Shown here piece by piece: positions 13,197 to 57,755 of a DNA stretch of 64,000 nucleotides. Both the position numbers and the translations under genes were made by a program. The notes beneath the pieces were generated by a model. That model was not told the DNA's origin, made no database searches, and saw nothing but the letters and a program-made list of their open reading frames with translations. Source of the DNA: an uncultured Verrucomicrobiae bacterium (lineage in GTDB: Bacteria; Chlamydiota; Chlamydiia; Chlamydiales; Rhabdochlamydiaceae); contig CAWFUG010000009.1 of NCBI GenBank assembly GCA_963818965.1, positions 1 to 64,000 of the forward strand, in the 5' to 3' direction. Numbering within the stretch: position 1 is the first letter of the stretch; every line of letters begins with the position of its first letter.

Positions 13197-16100
13197 ATGA
13201 GCATCAGGTGCCGAGCTCAGCATCCATTCATAACATTTTTCTGCTGTACGGTCGTCGCCTTTTCAATGGGTGGTGTAAAAGGACACGCCGATTCAGGGGA
13301 AGTGATTCTCATAAGTTGTGGGGAAAAGCCCAAGCAGGGGCCGCCTGGCGTCCCAGGTGATCCAGGTGTAGCAGGCCCTCCAGGTCCTGCAGGATCTCCT
13401 GGCGCAGCGGGGCCAGATACGGGAATGACCGGTCCGATAGGTCCACAGGGATCCCCCGGGCCCTCAGGTGCGACGGGGATGACTGGGACCTCTGCAGGGG
13501 ATATGGGTGCTACGGGTAGTACAGGGGCTGTTGGGTCGGTAGGTCCAATGGGTTCGACTGGAAGTGCTACAGGACTGACCGGAATAACAGGGCCAACAGC
13601 CGCGGTGGGAGCGACAGGGGGAACGGGAACGACGGGTAGCACGGGAGAGACGGGCTCGGCCGGTGCGACAGGGTTAACAGGCGGGGCAGGATCAACGGGT
13701 ATGACCGGGCCGACCGGATTCACTGGAATGACTGGATCTACGGGGCCGACGGGTGGGATGGGTGTGACAGGGACTACGGGTACGACTGGACCGACAGGTG
13801 GCACTGGAGCAACGGGTCTCACAGGATCGGATGGCCCATTGGGATCTACAGGTTTCACTGGCTTCACAGGTCCGACAGGGGGAACTGGCTCGACGGGGGT
13901 CACAGGTCCGACAGGATTCACCGGTCTACCGGCTCTGACGGTCCAATAGGTTTTACGGGCCAAGCAGGCTCAACGGGCTCTACAGGGTTCACAGGAACGA
14001 CCGGTCCAGTAGGACCGACAGGTCTGACGGGTGGAACGGGACCCACTGGCTCTGATGGTCCAATAGGTTCTACAGGCCAAACAGGTTCAACGGGCTTTAC
14101 GGGTCTCTCAGGCTCGACCGGTTCTACAGGAACAACGGGGCCCACGGGTTTCATGGGTTCAATGGGCTCTACAGGCTCAACAGGAATAACGGGTGCTACA
14201 GGTCCTACGGGTTCAGATGGTCCAATAGGACTGACCGGAATGACCGGTAACACTGGATCTACAGGAACGACCGGTCTACCTGGTCCTATAGGGCTGACTG
14301 GGGCGACAGGGTCGACAGGAATGACTGGCTCTACGGGCCCTACCGGCTCTGACGGGCCAATAGGTTCCACCGGCCCAACAGGCACGACAGGTTCTACGGG
14401 AATAACTGGGCGACAGGGTGTTACAGGTTCAGATGGTCCAATCGGACTGACCGGAATAACGGGTAACATTGGGTCTACAGGTTCAACGGGTGTGACAGGT
14501 CCAACGGGTTCCACGGGATCGACTGGTTCTACAGGACTGACTGGACCCACAGGAACAACGGGTAACACTGGATTGACAGGTTCCACAGGACCTACAGGTC
14601 TGACAGGATCGACCGGTCTAACGGGGCTAATAGGTCCAACAGGTTCAACGGGGGACACGGGCCCCACAGGCCTACAGGCCCTACAGGCCCGACCGGCTTA
14701 ACAGGGACAACGGGTGCAACGGGGTTCACGGGGCTTACAGGGGAGACCGGCGCTACGGGGTTGACTAGTTTTACGGGATCTACAGGCAGTACAGGATTTA
14801 CAGGTTCTACTGGATTTACGGGACCGACAGGTTCTACAGGAAGTACAGGTTCCATTGGCGCTACAGGGGCCACTGGGATGACCGGCGAGACAGGGAATAC
14901 TGGTCCCGCAGGATTGACAGGTGCAACGGGAGTGACAGGAACGACGGGCAACACAGGTGCAACGGGAATAACCGGCTCAACGGGGCTCACCGGATCTACC
15001 GGCCTGACAGGTAGTACGACAGGTCCTACGGGGTCTACTGGCATGACGGGAATGACGGGGTCTAACGGGCCCGACAGGACCGACAGGCTCAACGGGTAGC
15101 ACGGGCTCAACGGGGTCTACGGGTACAACAGGTTCTACGGGGATCACAGGGGCAACGGGTCCAACAGGTAGCACGGGCTCGACGGAACAACTGGCAGCAC
15201 TGGATCTACTGGTCCTACAGGATCTACTGGCCTAACTGGATACACAGGATCGACCGGAGGGGGCAGGGGCAACGGGTTTTACGGGAGCGACAGGGGCCAC
15301 CGGGTCCGACAGGCACTACAGGTCCAACGGGGCCGACTGGCACGACAGGAAATACAGGCCCTACTGGGCCAACCGGGAATACAGGACAGACTGGAACGAC
15401 AGGGACAACGGGTTTTACGGGAACTACTGGGAGCACAGGGCTCACAGGTTTGACTGGCTCAACGGGCGGGACAGGGAGCACAGGAACCACAGGTCTGACC
15501 GGCTCAACCGGTCCAACAGGTCTCACTGGTCCAACGGGCCCCACGGGGCTCCACAGGTCCTACAGGACTTACAGGTCCAACAGGACTAACGGGATCTGTG
15601 GGCTCTACAGGCGGTACAGGGAACACCGGAACAACAGGTAGTACAGGATCGACCGGCCAGACAGGCCCCACAGGTCAAACAGGCATCACGGGGTTGACAG
15701 GATCGACCGGCTCTACAGGCCCGATGGGCCTGACAGGGGCCACGGGCCCAACGGGGCTCACGGGAATCACAGGTGCGACTGGTCCCACGGGCTCGACTGG
15801 CTTTACGGGATCTACGGGCAGTACAGGATTTACAGGTCCAACTGGAGGATTTACAGGCTCAACTGGATCTACGGGAAGTACAGGTTCTACTGGCGTTACA
15901 GGTGTCACTGGGATCACCGGAGAGGGACATGGATTCCAGAGGATTCACAGGGGCAACGGGAGCGCAGGATCGATGGGCAACACAGGTGAAGTGGGATAAT
16001 CCGGTCAACGGCAGCGAATTGCATTGACCGGTTTGAGGAGACGACATGTTCACGGACGGGAATAACGGGGTCTACCCGCCCGACAGGCCCGACAGGCTCA

Positions 16101-55619: not shown

Positions 55620-57755
55620 ATGAGACAGATTTTTCTTTCGAGCTTTTTGCTCTTTTCTCTTTCCTCTTACGCAGAAGAGCCGGTTCACCTCTTAAGTGGA
55701 AAATGCGGCGCGCTGCCTGAACAAGGATCCGCAGGGGGCCCCGGTTCACCCGGTTCTATCGGTCCACCAGGCCCACCGGGCTCGACGGGTTTTTCTACTA
55801 GTATGACGGGGAGCACAGGGCCTGCAGGAAGCACAGGGTCTACCGGCCCCATTGGATCTACAGGGGGAGTAGGAGAAAGCGGAAGCCAGGGGGCCATGGG
55901 AAGTCCTGGGCCGCTAGGAGGAACAGGCTCTACTGGATCTGTCGGGCTGACCGGCACTACGGGTAATACAGGAATGACCGGCTTAACAGGCCCCACAGGG
56001 TCGATGGGCACCACGGGTCCTACCGGTCCGACGGGGTCGACAGGGGGAACCGGTCCCACAGGTTTAACGGGCCCCCTCGGCCCTACGGGTACCACCGGTG
56101 CCACGGCTCTGACAGGATCGACCGGTCTAACGGGAACAACCGGAATGACTGGCATGACGGGAATGACAGGTCCCACCGGTATGACAGCTGGATTAGGGGC
56201 TACGGGATCCACAGGGATCACAGGTTCGACTGGCCTAACCGGTTTGACCGGGCCTACGGGGGCAACAGGTGCCACAGGTGCTACAGGAGTTACCGGTCCA
56301 ACTGGACCGAGCGGACCCACGGGCTCGACAGGAGCCACCGGACCGACCGGCTTTACTGGCCGGACAGGTCCTACCGGACCGACCGGTAGCGCAGGGCCCA
56401 CGGGAATTACCGGTTTCACTGGACTGACTGGTCCTACGGGACCCACAGGCCTGACCGGCTCCACAGGCCCGACTGGTCCCACTGGTTCAACCGGGTTAAC
56501 GGGTTCTACCGGATTCACGGGTTCTACCGGCGGGGCAGGTATCACAGGGTCCACGGGTTTTACTGGTCCGACCGGCCCCACGGGACCAACAGGCGCAACA
56601 GGCCTCACAGGCTCTACCGGGCCGACAGGTCCCACGGGTCCTACGGGGCCGACAGGCCTCACAGGTCATACAGGATCAACTGGCCCGACGGGCCCCACAG
56701 GGCCGACAGGCTCAACTGGTCCTACAGGACTCTCCGGGTCTACTGGCTCGACGGGCTTTACAGGCTTAAGCGGTCCCACCGGCTTTACAGGATCTACCGG
56801 CTCGACCGGTCTTACCGGCCCCACGGGTCCGACCGGCCCCACGGGAGGAGTGACCGGTTCCACGGGTCCTACTAGTTCGACGGGCTCTACAGGATTTACT
56901 GGGGGGGCAGGGCCGAGTGGTCCTACTGGGCCTACAGGTTCCACAGGTCTCTCAGGGTCCTCTGGCTTTACCGGTGGGACGGGCGCCACAGGACCTTCCG
57001 GTAGCGCTGGTGTAACAGGAGGAACGGGAGCTACAGGTCTGAGTGGTCAGACGGGCAGCACAGGGACTACAGGTTCTACGGGATTTCCAGGATTTACTGG
57101 GTTTACAGGTTCCTCGGGATTTACAGGATCGACGACGGGAGCCACGGGATTCACAGGTCCTACAGGGGCGACGGGATCTACTGGATTCACTGCATCGACC
57201 GGAGCTACCGGAAGCACAGGATCGAGAACAGGAGCCACGGGTCCCACGGGAGTTACAGGGCCAACGGGCCCAACGGGTTCCTCGGGTCCAACGGGATCGA
57301 CCGGTAGCACAGGAACCTCCGGTGCTGGAGCCACACAGCCGTCCTTTGGCACTATAGTAGGGGGGTTCGTTACGTCGTGGCCTCCCGGAGGTGTCGCTAC
57401 CACAGCAGGCGGATTTGCCATTCCGCAAGGGGGTGTTGCCTTGAACGGTGGGAGCGGTTTTAATCTCGCCACACTTTCTGAGGGGCTGTACCTGGTCTCT
57501 TTTGGCATCAATCCAAGCGACACGATTAATTTCCCTATTGTAATTGGACTTTCACTCAACGGTGCTACCCCTGTTGCTGGCTCTTCTCTCATTGTAGGAC
57601 AGGCATCGAATTCTGGAGTAGCGGCTATAATGGGTACGAGCTTGTTGCTTAACATACCAGGAGAAACGACGCTGCAGTTGATCAACATGGGCACAAGCAA
57701 TTTGACCCTGGAGTTTTTTGAGGACTCTTTCTTTTTCACGGTAGTTAGATTATAA
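55620..57755 (+). CDS. Collagen-like protein, operon 3 chain C3 (N-type C, divergent head)
   Basis: 711 aa; [24 protein letters not shown]; ~532 G-X-T residues; GLYLVSFG...FTVVRL. Confidence 0.92.

What the first reader, a model, noticed from the sequence alone, without database searches (positions are those of the whole stretch)
13197..57755. Candidate heterotrimeric (ABC) bacterial collagen system: three operons of three length-matched chains
Seen: nine collagen genes form three closely spaced trios (13197-36679, 43902-50623, 51178-57755). Every trio has exactly one N-terminal type A (C-x-x-KPK-x-GPP), one type B (C-x-x-x-SKK-GP) and one type C (KCG-x-x-PEQ-GSAG), and three different C-terminal heads. 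Collagen-domain lengths match within each trio by my count: 7178/7183/7171 nt (~2,390 aa) in operon 1, ~539/535/538 aa in operon 2 and ~541/540/532 aa in operon 3. Known: characterised bacterial collagens such as streptococcal Scl1/Scl2 and Bacillus BclA are homotrimers, whereas complement C1q is an ABC heterotrimer encoded by three clustered genes. Inference: each operon makes one 1:1:1 triple helix, so chain lengths must co-evolve. I know of no such system described in bacteria but cannot search to confirm this.
Basis: partly seen in the sequence, partly recalled or inferred. Interest (0 to 1): 0.97.

Follow-up and report, generated by a model that had tools for sequence, protein, structure and literature searches.

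The report
Length-matched collagen gene trios in chlamydia
A soil chlamydia-like bacterium carries nine collagen genes in three sets of three whose stalk lengths are locked together within each set, which suggests, but does not prove, that bacteria can build three-different-chain collagens as animals do.

Summary
Nine + strand genes encode secreted chains: a Cys motif, a Gly-X-Thr collagen stalk and a BclA/TNF-like head. Each trio has one N-terminal type A, B and C. Between homologous anchors the stalks have 794/797/795, 180/180/181 and 180/179/180 triplet slots.

Corrections:
- All three giant genes are frameshifted in this assembly. Contigs from other samples carry the frame-restoring indel at all 5 sites they cover.
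- N-type/head pairing is shuffled in operon 2.
- Such triplets are already described in Pasteuria ramosa.

In 27 related genomes, 24 of 27 tightly adjacent gene pairs match within 6%, against 3 of 10 non-adjacent neighbours. In three cases related trios have different stalk lengths, yet the three chains within each trio still match. Collagen DNA identity is at background level, so gene conversion does not explain the match.

A 1:1:1 heterotrimer is the best reading (about 0.55) but is not shown. Gly-X-Y interruptions do not coincide between chains. The head-complex prediction (0.91 against a best control of 0.35) cannot separate hetero- from homotrimers. The main rival is three co-expressed homotrimeric fibres kept at equal height.

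An earlier scan note on other DNA of this genome described the palindromic element that also sits in gene 3.

The parts
13197..20978 (+). Giant chain 1 of operon 1: N type A, head class H2 (DWGYFF). It has about 794 triplet slots and internal tandem repeats of about 344 aa. It is frameshifted in this assembly.
   Evidence: Searches give 12-14 frameshifts, 11-13 of them within 13926-17797 and one in the head at 20681; contigs from other samples carry the restoring indel at 15064, 15183, 17147, 17517 and 17801. Searches show the repeats.
21011..28781 (+). Giant chain 2 of operon 1: N type B, head class H1 (DYGYFY). It has about 797 triplet slots and 1029-nt (343-aa) tandem repeats. It has two frameshifts, at about 21182 in a C run and at 22147.
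28782..36679 (+). Giant chain 3 of operon 1: N type C, head class H3. It has about 795 triplet slots and 1029-nt tandem repeats. Its ATG directly follows the stop of chain 2. It has frameshifts at about 28995 (a T7 run) and about 29146-29152.
28807..28973 (.). A 167-nt palindromic element with arms 100% complementary. The start of chain 3 reads through it without a stop. It is a member of a multi-copy family in this genome.
   Evidence: 68 BLAST rows at some 35 places. Earlier scan note e1-3868245.
36879..38048 (+). GT92-like glycosyltransferase directly after operon 1. It is a candidate glycosylase for the Thr-rich stalks.
   Evidence: Glyco_transf_92 E 5.6e-31, Glyco_tranf_2_4 E 8.1e-16. By eye, similar ORFs sit beside collagen genes in three relatives' loci and in G411.
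37996..39645 (+). 549-aa protein of no known family, downstream of the GT92 gene.
   Evidence: Searches found no family. One search gave only weak leads to FN3/beta-propeller clusters (best score 0.89).
40141..43501 (-). Two 86% identical secreted paralogs of 526 and 524 aa (40141-41721 and 41927-43501). Proteins with a similar C-terminal end lie in the collagen locus of G411.
   Evidence: 453 of 526 identical. Searches found no family. One search shows the G411 ORFs, compared by eye.
43902..46094 (+). Operon 2 chain: N type A, head class H1, 180 triplet slots.
   Evidence: (Collagen E 7.1e-66).
46180..48423 (+). Operon 2 chain: N type C, head class H2, 180 triplet slots. It is the only chain whose head matches Pfam BclA_C.
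   Evidence: (BclA_C E 1.8e-11, 44.5 bits against a cut-off of 38).
48425..50623 (+). Operon 2 chain: N type B, head class H3 (placement weak), 181 triplet slots.
51178..53367 (+). Operon 3 chain: N type A, head class H2 (long branch), 180 triplet slots.
53384..55615 (+). Operon 3 chain: N type B, head class H1, 179 triplet slots.
55620..57755 (+). Operon 3 chain: N type C, head class H3 (long branch), 180 triplet slots.

Best explanation
Each trio encodes the three different alpha chains of one secreted collagen fibril.

Shown by the sequence, each chain has:
- a signal-peptide-like N-terminus;
- one Cys seven residues before the stalk, in a motif that is basic in types A and B and acidic in type C;
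- about eight Pro-rich triplets followed by a hinge;
- a long, almost uncharged Gly-X-Thr stalk;
- a BclA/TNF-like jelly-roll head.

Inferred mechanism:
- The three head types select one another and nucleate a 1:1:1 trimer.
- The stalks then zip up from the C-terminus to the N-terminus, as collagen folding is described in the abstract of PMC11923368.
- This requires equal numbers of triplets in the three chains. Any change in length must therefore be matched in all three genes.
- The Cys residues cross-link or anchor the N-terminal end.
- The adjacent GT92-like enzyme glycosylates the Thr-rich stalk.

Product: at the textbook rise of 0.286 nm per residue, the fibrils would be about 155 nm long (operons 2 and 3) and about 680 nm long (operon 1). 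They would sit on a chlamydia-like cell. By analogy with BclA and the Pasteuria proteins, their likely role is attachment to the host.
For: 1. Precision of the match. Triplet slots are 180/180/181, 180/179/180 and 794/797/795. The chains nevertheless carry different numbers of one-residue insertions: 6/1/1, 7/7/4 and 16/7/8 (the operon-1 chain-1 figures are uncertain).

2. Trios descend from an ancestral trio.
- The N types group across operons, at 53-65% identity within a type against 42-57% between types.
- In the head tree no two heads of one operon group together.
- Operon 1 therefore gained about 615 triplets in each of three already different genes. Each gene has its own tandem repeat of 343, 343 or about 344 aa.

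3. No homogenisation.
- Identity of the mid-stalk DNA is 0.646-0.661 within an operon and 0.625-0.660 for the other pairs. The longest identical run is 20 nt.
- Giant chain 2 is about 63% identical to chains 1 and 3. That equals the identity of out-of-register alignments between the genes.

4. Recurrence.
- 24 of 27 tightly adjacent gene pairs in 15 clusters match within 6%, and 12 of 15 clusters match fully. Random pairing gives a mean of 1.6, with a maximum of 9 in 20,000 draws.
- Only 3 of 10 non-adjacent neighbours match.

5. Related trios differ in length between trios while matching within each.
- G000: about 795 against 180 triplet slots.
- G343: its two trios pair head by head (supports 95/88, 97/95 and 91/85), with stalks of 232/224/219 against 170/175/173 aa.
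- Mini-trios: 39/39/39 in G443 and G456 against 30/30/30 in G441.

6. Natural control. In G411 a tight trio with three head types measures 280/279/282, while nearby paralogs with similar heads measure 612/506/613. In G224 two genes with near-identical N-termini measure 1212 and 675.

7. Gene spacing. The gaps inside trios are 0-82 nt.

8. Complex model. The heads of operon 2, each with five triplets, are modelled as one trimer. The score is 0.91 and the best of 3 controls is 0.35. That mark was reached by 116 of 157 solved complexes and 2 of 215 mismatched pairs. The runs agree in at least 95% of contacts and the partner's pLDDT is at least 88. This shows compatibility only.
Against: - Interruptions do not coincide. 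In operon 1 the periodic one-residue insertions lie at about 1243/1589/1933 plus GG at 1176/1522/1866 (chain 1), at 623/966/1309/1652/1995 (chain 2) and at 725/1068/1411/1754 (chain 3). In operons 2 and 3 only the hinge at about 15-24 is shared. A single-chain insertion must bulge out of a mixed helix, whereas in a homotrimer it is automatically present in all three chains.
- The stalks carry almost no charges, at 1-6 charged or His residues per chain. No electrostatic chain-selection code is visible.
- Singleton relatives must be homotrimers. The solved BclA heads that the fold search matched are deposited as one kind of chain.
- Some clusters are not matched: G001 298/291/259, G413 225/283/297 and G441 322/30/30/30.
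- The complex model would probably also accept homotrimers. No homotrimer job could be run because the cap is one.
- Head classes H2 and H3 rest on weak branches (80/79) and long branches, and o2c is unresolved.
Confidence: 0.55

Rival explanations
1. The three genes of a trio make three separate homotrimeric fibrils, as BclA does. They are co-transcribed and carry different heads. Selection keeps their stalks at the same height so that the heads lie in one plane of a surface nap or lattice.
For: - Interruptions fall at different places in the three chains. That is natural for homotrimers.
- The family's solved relatives are deposited as one kind of chain, and a review calls prokaryotic collagens homotrimers (PMC8968730, passage).
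- Singletons are common in relatives.
- AF3 modelling of C. difficile BclA paralogs found no heterotrimers (passage read in 10.1101/2025.06.24.661383).
- Six genes holding 179-181 slots shows strong stabilising selection on length as such.
Against: - It gives no reason for sets of exactly three with three N types and three head classes. That pattern was seen in 3 G000 trios, and three-type trios occur in G343 (2), G411, G443, G456 and G441.
- A match of one to three triplets in about 800 is finer than a flexible 680-nm fibre would seem to need.
- The three heads model as one trimer, although that test is not discriminating.
Confidence: 0.33
2. The length match has no functional meaning. The genes of a trio are tandem duplicates that inherited one length, or their stalks are homogenised by gene conversion.
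For: - G427 has three near-identical tandem copies of 201/201/201.
- Pairs in genus g14 cluster by genome in the head tree.
- The stalks of the mini-trios are very alike among paralogs.
Against: - In G000 the stalk DNA is at background identity within operons, and the longest identical run is 20 nt.
- Heads within a trio are only 16-38% identical, so the duplication is old.
- Paralogs of the same head type have very different lengths: 1212 against 675, and 612/506/613.
- Operon 1 changed length about 4.4-fold in all three genes.
Confidence: 0.07
3. Operon 1 is a decaying pseudo-operon, so only operons 2 and 3 are functional.
For: There are 12-14, 2 and 2 frameshifts in its three genes, and a palindromic element lies in the start of gene 3.
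Against: - After frame correction there are no in-frame stops, and the Gly periodicity is kept.
- Contigs from other samples carry the restoring indel at all 5 frameshift sites that the listed pieces cover.
- Several breaks lie in homopolymer runs.
- An unrelated gene at 61438-62923 is also split, which fits assembly error.
Confidence: 0.15

Closest known systems
Pasteuria ramosa collagen-like protein (PCL) triplets. McElroy et al. 2011 was not read. It is known here as cited in PMC13233619, 10.1101/2025.03.22.644704 and 10.1101/2024.02.09.579640, where passages were read.
   Same: - Three adjacent same-strand collagen-like genes, one from each of three sequence groups.
- The triplets multiply by whole-triplet duplication.
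- A BclA-like C-terminal head (PMC7743900, passage).
- A Thr-rich stalk (recalled from the 2011 abstract, not from any call).
   Different: - The phylum differs: Bacillota spore-former against a chlamydia-like bacterium.
- Here the order and the N-type/head pairing are not fixed (operon 2).
- Here the stalk lengths were measured and found to be locked within trios, with lengths ranging from 10 to about 800 triplets.
- I could not measure the Pasteuria lengths, because the supplement read gives none.
- Homology to PCL groups 1-3 was not tested.
- PMC13233619 says the triplet organisation seems unique to P. ramosa, and PMC10329263 says its function is not known.
Bacillus BclA and F-BclA exosporium or appendage fibrils
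   Same: - A Gly-X-Thr collagen stalk with a C-terminal TNF-like jelly-roll head.
- The model of the operon-1 chain-2 head matches 9h38 (E 7.9e-9, TM 0.69-0.77) and 1wck (TM 0.61/0.67).
- A glycosyltransferase gene lies beside the collagen genes. BclA glycosylation itself is recalled, not from a call.
   Different: - BclA is a single gene and a homotrimer.
- Here there are Sec-type signal peptides and a Cys motif in place of an exosporium-targeting N-terminus.
- The stalks here are 180 and about 795 triplets long.
- Only 1 of the 7 sequences scanned (six full chains and one tail) reaches Pfam BclA_C.
Complement C1q, an ABC heterotrimer from three clustered genes (recalled knowledge)
   Same: - Three clustered genes and three chain types.
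- A short N-terminal part with a Cys.
- A collagen stalk and a TNF-like globular head.
- A shared hinge early in the stalk.
   Different: - No sequence relationship was shown.
- The stalks here are 2 to 30 times longer.
- Most interruptions do not coincide between chains.
- Heterotrimer formation is not shown here.

Membership tests
Bacterial collagen-like protein of the BclA type | Gly-X-Y collagen repeats | tested here: met
   Pfam Collagen gave E 1.3e-64 to 4.2e-75 for the six short chains and 7.1e-12 for the tail of giant chain 3.
Bacterial collagen-like protein of the BclA type | C-terminal BclA/TNF-like jelly-roll head | tested here: met
   - Pfam BclA_C matches only o2b (E 1.8e-11).
- All nine heads align with one another.
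- An AlphaFold2 model of the o1b head (pLDDT 83, pTM 0.80) matches F-BclA 9h38 and BclA 1wck first, then TNF ligands.
- A sequence profile search of the PDB found nothing meaningful (best E 0.011, antibody light chains).
Bacterial collagen-like protein of the BclA type | Homotrimeric assembly | not testable with these tools
   Only one complex job was allowed.
Pasteuria-type collagen gene triplet | Three adjacent same-strand genes, one from each of three sequence groups | tested here: met
   N types A, B and C occur once per trio. No two heads of one operon group together in the tree.
Pasteuria-type collagen gene triplet | The same order of the groups in every triplet | tested here: not met
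   Operons 1 and 3 are A-B-C and operon 2 is A-C-B. Head order is H2-H1-H3 in operons 1 and 3 against H1-H2-H3 in operon 2.
Pasteuria-type collagen gene triplet | Triplets arise by duplication of whole triplets | tested here: met
   Head tree. The G000 heads split by class and not by operon. The two trios of G343 pair head by head (supports 95/88, 97/95 and 91/85).
Pasteuria-type collagen gene triplet | Sequence homology to PCL groups 1, 2 and 3 | not tested
C1q-like ABC heterotrimeric collagen | Three different chains in one triple helix | not testable with these tools
   The complex model passes (0.91 against a best control of 0.35) but cannot exclude homotrimers.
C1q-like ABC heterotrimeric collagen | Equal stalk length in the three chains | tested here: met
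   794/797/795, 180/180/181 and 180/179/180 triplet slots.
C1q-like ABC heterotrimeric collagen | Interruptions of Gly-X-Y at matching places in the chains (a feature recalled for C1q and collagen IV) | tested here: not met
   Only the hinge at about 15-24 residues is shared. The other interruptions lie tens to a hundred residues apart.

The most novel reading that the evidence does not exclude
Chlamydia-like bacteria make true ABC heterotrimeric collagens. Three head types select one another, and the triple helix itself acts as the constraint that forces three separate genes to gain or lose exactly the same number of triplets. In operon 1 this went as far as a parallel expansion by 343-344-residue modules to a fibril of about 680 nm. 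The same architecture arose or persisted in several lineages of the order, and perhaps in Pasteuria. That would make gene trios a general signature of heterotrimeric prokaryotic collagen.
Probability: 0.5. Interest if true: 0.88.

Novelty: new variant of a known kind. Interest (0 to 1): 0.8.

Why it matters
Prokaryotic collagens are treated as homotrimers (PMC8968730, passage). That limits their use as models and materials for heterotrimeric animal collagens.

A natural bacterial ABC collagen would offer:
- ready-made chain-selection heads;
- an uncharged stalk that folds without hydroxyproline.

It would also explain why collagen genes come in threes in Pasteuria, where triplets, but not single genes, associate with host specificity and their role is called unknown (PMC10329263).

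Even if the chains turn out to be homotrimers, the locking of length to within one triplet across diverged genes is a clean natural example of selection on a molecular ruler. The parallel 4.4-fold expansion in operon 1 adds to that case.

The finding also gives a first description of a large, glycosyltransferase-linked fibril system in environmental chlamydiae. My searches found no paper on it.

Tried and rejected
Searches that found nothing:
- The H1 head alignment found no relative in genome contigs or in metagenome contigs.
- A degenerate DNA pattern for the type C motif found nothing in metagenome contigs.
- No RNA holder was listed among the sequencing runs. Only three DNA runs held 5-6% of the words, so expression could not be addressed.
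- The Pasteuria supplement (PMC13233619, file 1, parts 1-2) gives copy numbers and identities but no lengths. Within-triplet length matching in Pasteuria could not be tested.

Analyses that gave no signal:
- Promoter- and terminator-like sites across operons 2 and 3 were no more frequent than in shuffles: 4 against 5.2, and 13 against 14.4.
- Chlam_OMP6 was not found in the genome, but the control rang nowhere, so this says nothing.
- A test of whether operon-2 chains are visibly chimeric along the stalk gave no signal. The stalk identity is flat at about 45-55% of non-Gly positions for any pair.
- Charge complementarity between chains was looked for and rejected, because the stalks are almost uncharged.
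- NCBIfam, Pfam and the protein atlas gave no firm family for the 549-aa and the 524/526-aa neighbours.

A flaw in one analysis:
- The head tree included 4 antisense junk rows that I failed to filter. They form their own clade and do not affect the other groupings.

An idea kept only as a lead:
- Operon 2's arrangement (A-H1, C-H2, B-H3) is what three stalk-to-stalk fusions of neighbouring genes would give in a tandem pair of A-H2, B-H1, C-H3 operons.
- Its only support is that a G413 gene combines the N part of one G411 trio gene with the head of the next (85 of 131 head residues identical).

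
Full report
**What is there.** The window is the first 64 kb of contig 9 of a 2.24-Mb, 12-contig genome that is 87.85% complete.
- Nine + strand genes between 13197 and 57755 encode collagen-like chains.
- A six-frame scan of the whole genome found such runs only at these nine genes. One further hit on contig 2 proved to be poly-Gly, not collagen.
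- Pfam Collagen matches all six short chains (E 1.3e-64 to 4.2e-75) and the tail of giant chain 3.
- The local G+C of about 0.60, against 0.48 for the genome, follows from the Gly/Pro/Thr codons.

**Anatomy of a chain.**
- A hydrophobic signal-peptide-like start.
- A single Cys seven residues before the first stalk Gly.
- About eight Pro-rich triplets, then a hinge about 15-24 residues into the stalk.
- A long Gly-X-Thr stalk with only 1-6 charged or His residues per short chain.
- A head of about 145 residues.
- The nine heads align with one another.
- Pfam BclA_C reaches only o2b (E 1.8e-11). A profile search of PDB sequences gave nothing meaningful.
- An AlphaFold2 model of the o1b head (pLDDT 83, pTM 0.80) matches the F-BclA head 9h38 (E 7.9e-9, TM 0.69-0.77) and BclA 1wck, then TNF-family ligands.

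**Operon 1 is broken in this assembly.**
- Gene 1 (13197-20978) needs 12 to 14 frame changes. Nearly all lie within 13926-17797, and one is in the head.
- Gene 2 (21011-28781) needs two. One is a missing C in a C run at about 21182.
- Gene 3 starts at the ATG at 28782, directly after the stop of gene 2. It reads without a stop through a perfect 167-nt palindromic element (28807-28973). It then needs a shift in a T7 run at about 28995 and another at about 29150.
- After correction there is no in-frame stop, and the Gly period is kept.
- Contigs from three soil or peat metagenome runs hold only 5-6% of the region's words. Where the listed pieces cover my frameshift sites, they carry exactly the restoring indel at 15064, 15183, 17147, 17517 and 17801, which is 5 of 5 covered sites.
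- An unrelated MptE-like gene is also split, at 61438-62923.
- I read the breaks as assembly errors or strain-specific lesions. The genes are open at those sites in relatives.

**Lengths.** Three measures agree.

| Measure | Operon 1 | Operon 2 | Operon 3 |
|---|---|---|---|
| Regular-expression bounds (aa) | 2395/2393/2385 | 542/532/538 | 541/540/526 |
| Cys to first head motif (residues) | 2410/2404/2402 | 553/548/551 | 553/551/550 |
| Phase-aware trace, residues | 2397/2398/2393 | 546/541/544 | 546/544/543 |
| Phase-aware trace, triplet slots | 794/797/795 | 180/180/181 | 180/179/180 |
| Inserted residues | 16/7/8 | 6/1/1 | 7/7/4 |

- In the Cys-to-head measure, the operon-1 values carry an error of a few residues from my placeholders.
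- The gene 1 figures in the trace are the least certain.
- The helical length is matched even more tightly than the residue count.

**Descent.**
- N-terminal parts group by type across operons: 53-65% identity within a type and 42-57% between types.
- Heads within a trio are 16-38% identical.
- Head class H1 (o1b, o2a, o3b) is clear at 41-50% identity.
- In the maximum-likelihood tree, H2 = (o2b,(o1a,o3a)) and (o1c,o3c) have supports of 80/79. o2c is unresolved, and o3a and o3c are long branches (35 rows, of which 4 were antisense junk that I failed to filter).
- No two heads of one operon group together.
- The trios are therefore copies of an older trio.
- The N type is joined to a different head class in operon 2 (A-H1, C-H2, B-H3) than in operons 1 and 3 (A-H2, B-H1, C-H3).
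- Such shuffling happens in this family. One G413 gene has the N part of one G411 trio gene and the head of the next, with 85 of 131 head residues identical.

**The expansion in operon 1.**
- Each giant gene holds its own tandem array. The period is 1029 nt in genes 2 and 3, with lag identity 0.79 and 0.72. It is about 344 aa in gene 1.
- Within a gene the copies are 74-86% identical.
- Genes 1 and 3 are about 72% identical to each other. Gene 2 is about 63% identical to either, which equals the identity of out-of-register alignments.
- Three already different genes thus each gained about 615 triplets, in modules of the same size.

**No homogenisation.**
- Mid-stalk DNA identity is 0.646-0.661 for the 6 same-operon pairs, 0.640-0.657 for the 3 same-type pairs and 0.625-0.660 for the other 6 pairs.
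- The longest identical run is 20 nt.

**Survey of relatives.**
- The head profile matched 11 of 41 relatives.
- It matched 43 of 400 genomes of the order, with one genome not scored.
- It matched 42 of 129 genomes of the family. G000 is counted in each figure.
- I fetched 31 stretches from 27 genomes. Hits on short contigs or at contig ends in other genomes were not examined.
- ORFs were filtered by Gly-X-Y count and by composition to drop antisense frames.

Stalk lengths in aa:

| Cluster | Stalk lengths |
|---|---|
| G343, two trios | 232/224/219 and 170/175/173 |
| G348 | 493/492, plus 493 beyond two glycosyltransferase genes |
| G411 tight trio | 280/279/282 |
| G443 | 39/39/39 |
| G456 | 39/39/39 |
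| G441 | 322/30/30/30 |
| G427 | 201/201/201 (near-identical recent copies) |
| G014 pair | 429/427 |
| G232 pair | 833/825 |
| G001 (same genus) | 298/291/259 |
| G413 | 225/283/297 |

Unmatched genes separated by other genes:
- G224: 1212 and 675, with near-identical N-termini.
- G400: 442 and 114.
- G455: 626 and 224.
- G411: 612/506/613, and 729/754.

Counts:
- 24 of 27 adjacent pairs match within 6%.
- 12 of 15 clusters match fully.
- 3 of 10 non-adjacent neighbours match.
- Random pairs from the pool of 56 lengths give a mean of 1.6 of 27, with a maximum of 9 in 20,000 draws.
- An earlier test on 11 clusters gave 0 of 20,000 shuffles as low as observed.

Caveats on these counts:
- I defined the clusters after seeing them.
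- Related genomes are not independent.
- The bounds are regex-based.

Related trios differ in length between trios while matching within each, in three settings:
- G000, at about 795 against 180 slots.
- G343, whose two trios pair head by head with supports of 95/88, 97/95 and 91/85.
- The mini-trios, at 39 against 30.

**Heterotrimer or three homotrimers?**

For a mixed trimer:
- Sets of exactly three recur, with three types.
- The match is precise to the triplet.
- The gaps between genes are tight, at 0-82 nt.
- The heads of operon 2, each with five triplets, are modelled as one trimer. The score is 0.91 and the best of 3 controls is 0.35. That mark was reached by 116 of 157 solved complexes and 2 of 215 mismatched pairs. 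The runs agree in at least 95% of contacts, and the partner's pLDDT is at least 88. My own alignments were used, so these counts hold only roughly.
- That model shows compatibility, not preference. The heads are homologous to known trimers, and no homotrimer job was possible.

Against a mixed trimer:
- Interruptions do not coincide between chains.
- The stalks hold no charge code.
- Singletons are widespread.
- The family's known members are homotrimers.

I put the heterotrimer at about 0.55. Three equal-height homotrimeric fibrils stand at about 0.33.

**Context.**
- The genome holds four matches to the TLC ATP/ADP translocase family.
- The nearest PheT relatives, at 51-58% identity, are MAGs titled Chlamydiia, Rhabdochlamydia, Parachlamydiales or Chlamydiota. 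Some are labelled Verrucomicrobiae.
- This agrees with the earlier scan note that the genome looks like an environmental chlamydia.
- A GT92-like glycosyltransferase follows operon 1. By eye, similar ORFs sit beside collagen genes in G348, G400, G224 and G411. Glycosylation of the Thr-rich stalk is therefore a reasonable inference.

**Literature.**
- Pasteuria ramosa has 13 triplets of collagen-like genes, with one of each of three groups in a fixed order and orientation. They are thought to derive from one ancestral triplet (passages in PMC13233619, 10.1101/2025.03.22.644704 and 10.1101/2024.02.09.579640).
- PMC10329263 says the function of the triplets is not known.
- PMC7743900 notes that hetero- as well as homotrimers are possible.
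- PMC13233619 says the triplet organisation seems unique to P. ramosa.
- A C. difficile preprint found no BclA heterotrimers by AF3 (10.1101/2025.06.24.661383, passages).
- Full-text searches found no paper on chlamydial collagens or on natural bacterial heterotrimeric collagen. The term sets were: bacterial collagen + heterotrimer; collagen-like + chlamydiae + triple helix; BclA + heterotrimer; collagen-like proteins + heterotrimeric + prokaryotic + operon; and collagen-like + Chlamydiales + amoeba.
- The library lacks most subscription journals. McElroy 2011 itself was not read.

**Verdict.** The gene architecture has a described precedent in another phylum. The length-locking evidence and the chlamydial occurrence are new as far as my searches reach.

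Noticed in passing
window 28807-28973: A perfect 167-nt palindromic element (arms of 35 and 36 nt, 100% complementary) lies just inside the start of giant gene 3 and is read through in frame. BLAST finds related copies at some 35 places in the genome. These include partial copies at window 12031-12071 and 37003-37061.
   Followed up: partly
window 61438-62923: An MptE-like gene is split into two overlapping ORFs that match profile positions 1-67 and 68-170. This is a frameshift outside the collagen genes and fits indel errors in the assembly.
   Followed up: no
window 40141-43501 (- strand): Two secreted paralogs of 526 and 524 aa are 86% identical and belong to no known family. ORFs with a similar C-terminal end lie inside the collagen locus of G411, next to GT92-like and small RidA-like ORFs. 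This may be a conserved companion set.
   Followed up: partly
L063 5000-7037; L064 5069-7032; L065 6124-8199: Mini-trios. Each has three adjacent genes of about 220 aa with a stalk of only 10-13 triplets, no Cys motif and three head types. The stalks are 39/39/39 aa in two genera and 30/30/30 in a third. They are the most tractable constructs for testing mixed trimers.
   Followed up: partly
L067 5929-13467; L068 9867-15335: Relatives carry single giant collagen genes with stalks of 2289 and 1563 aa. No neighbouring collagen gene appears in the stretch fetched. Very long stalks therefore also occur outside trios.
   Followed up: no
L062 4434-5906 compared with G411 (L060 7872-10758): A G413 gene combines the N-terminal part of one G411 trio gene with the head of the neighbouring gene (85 of 131 head residues identical). 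A stalk-to-stalk fusion would produce this.
   Followed up: partly
window 12973-13057: A tRNA-Leu (GAG) lies 140 nt upstream of giant gene 1. It explains the very high metagenome depth at 12973-13019 in the read layout.
   Followed up: yes
window 13338-36262: 343 and 344 are not multiples of three. Every repeat module in the giant genes therefore carries one (genes 2 and 3) or two (gene 1) single-residue insertions, such as GSTTG or GG. They lie at different offsets in the three genes.
   Followed up: partly
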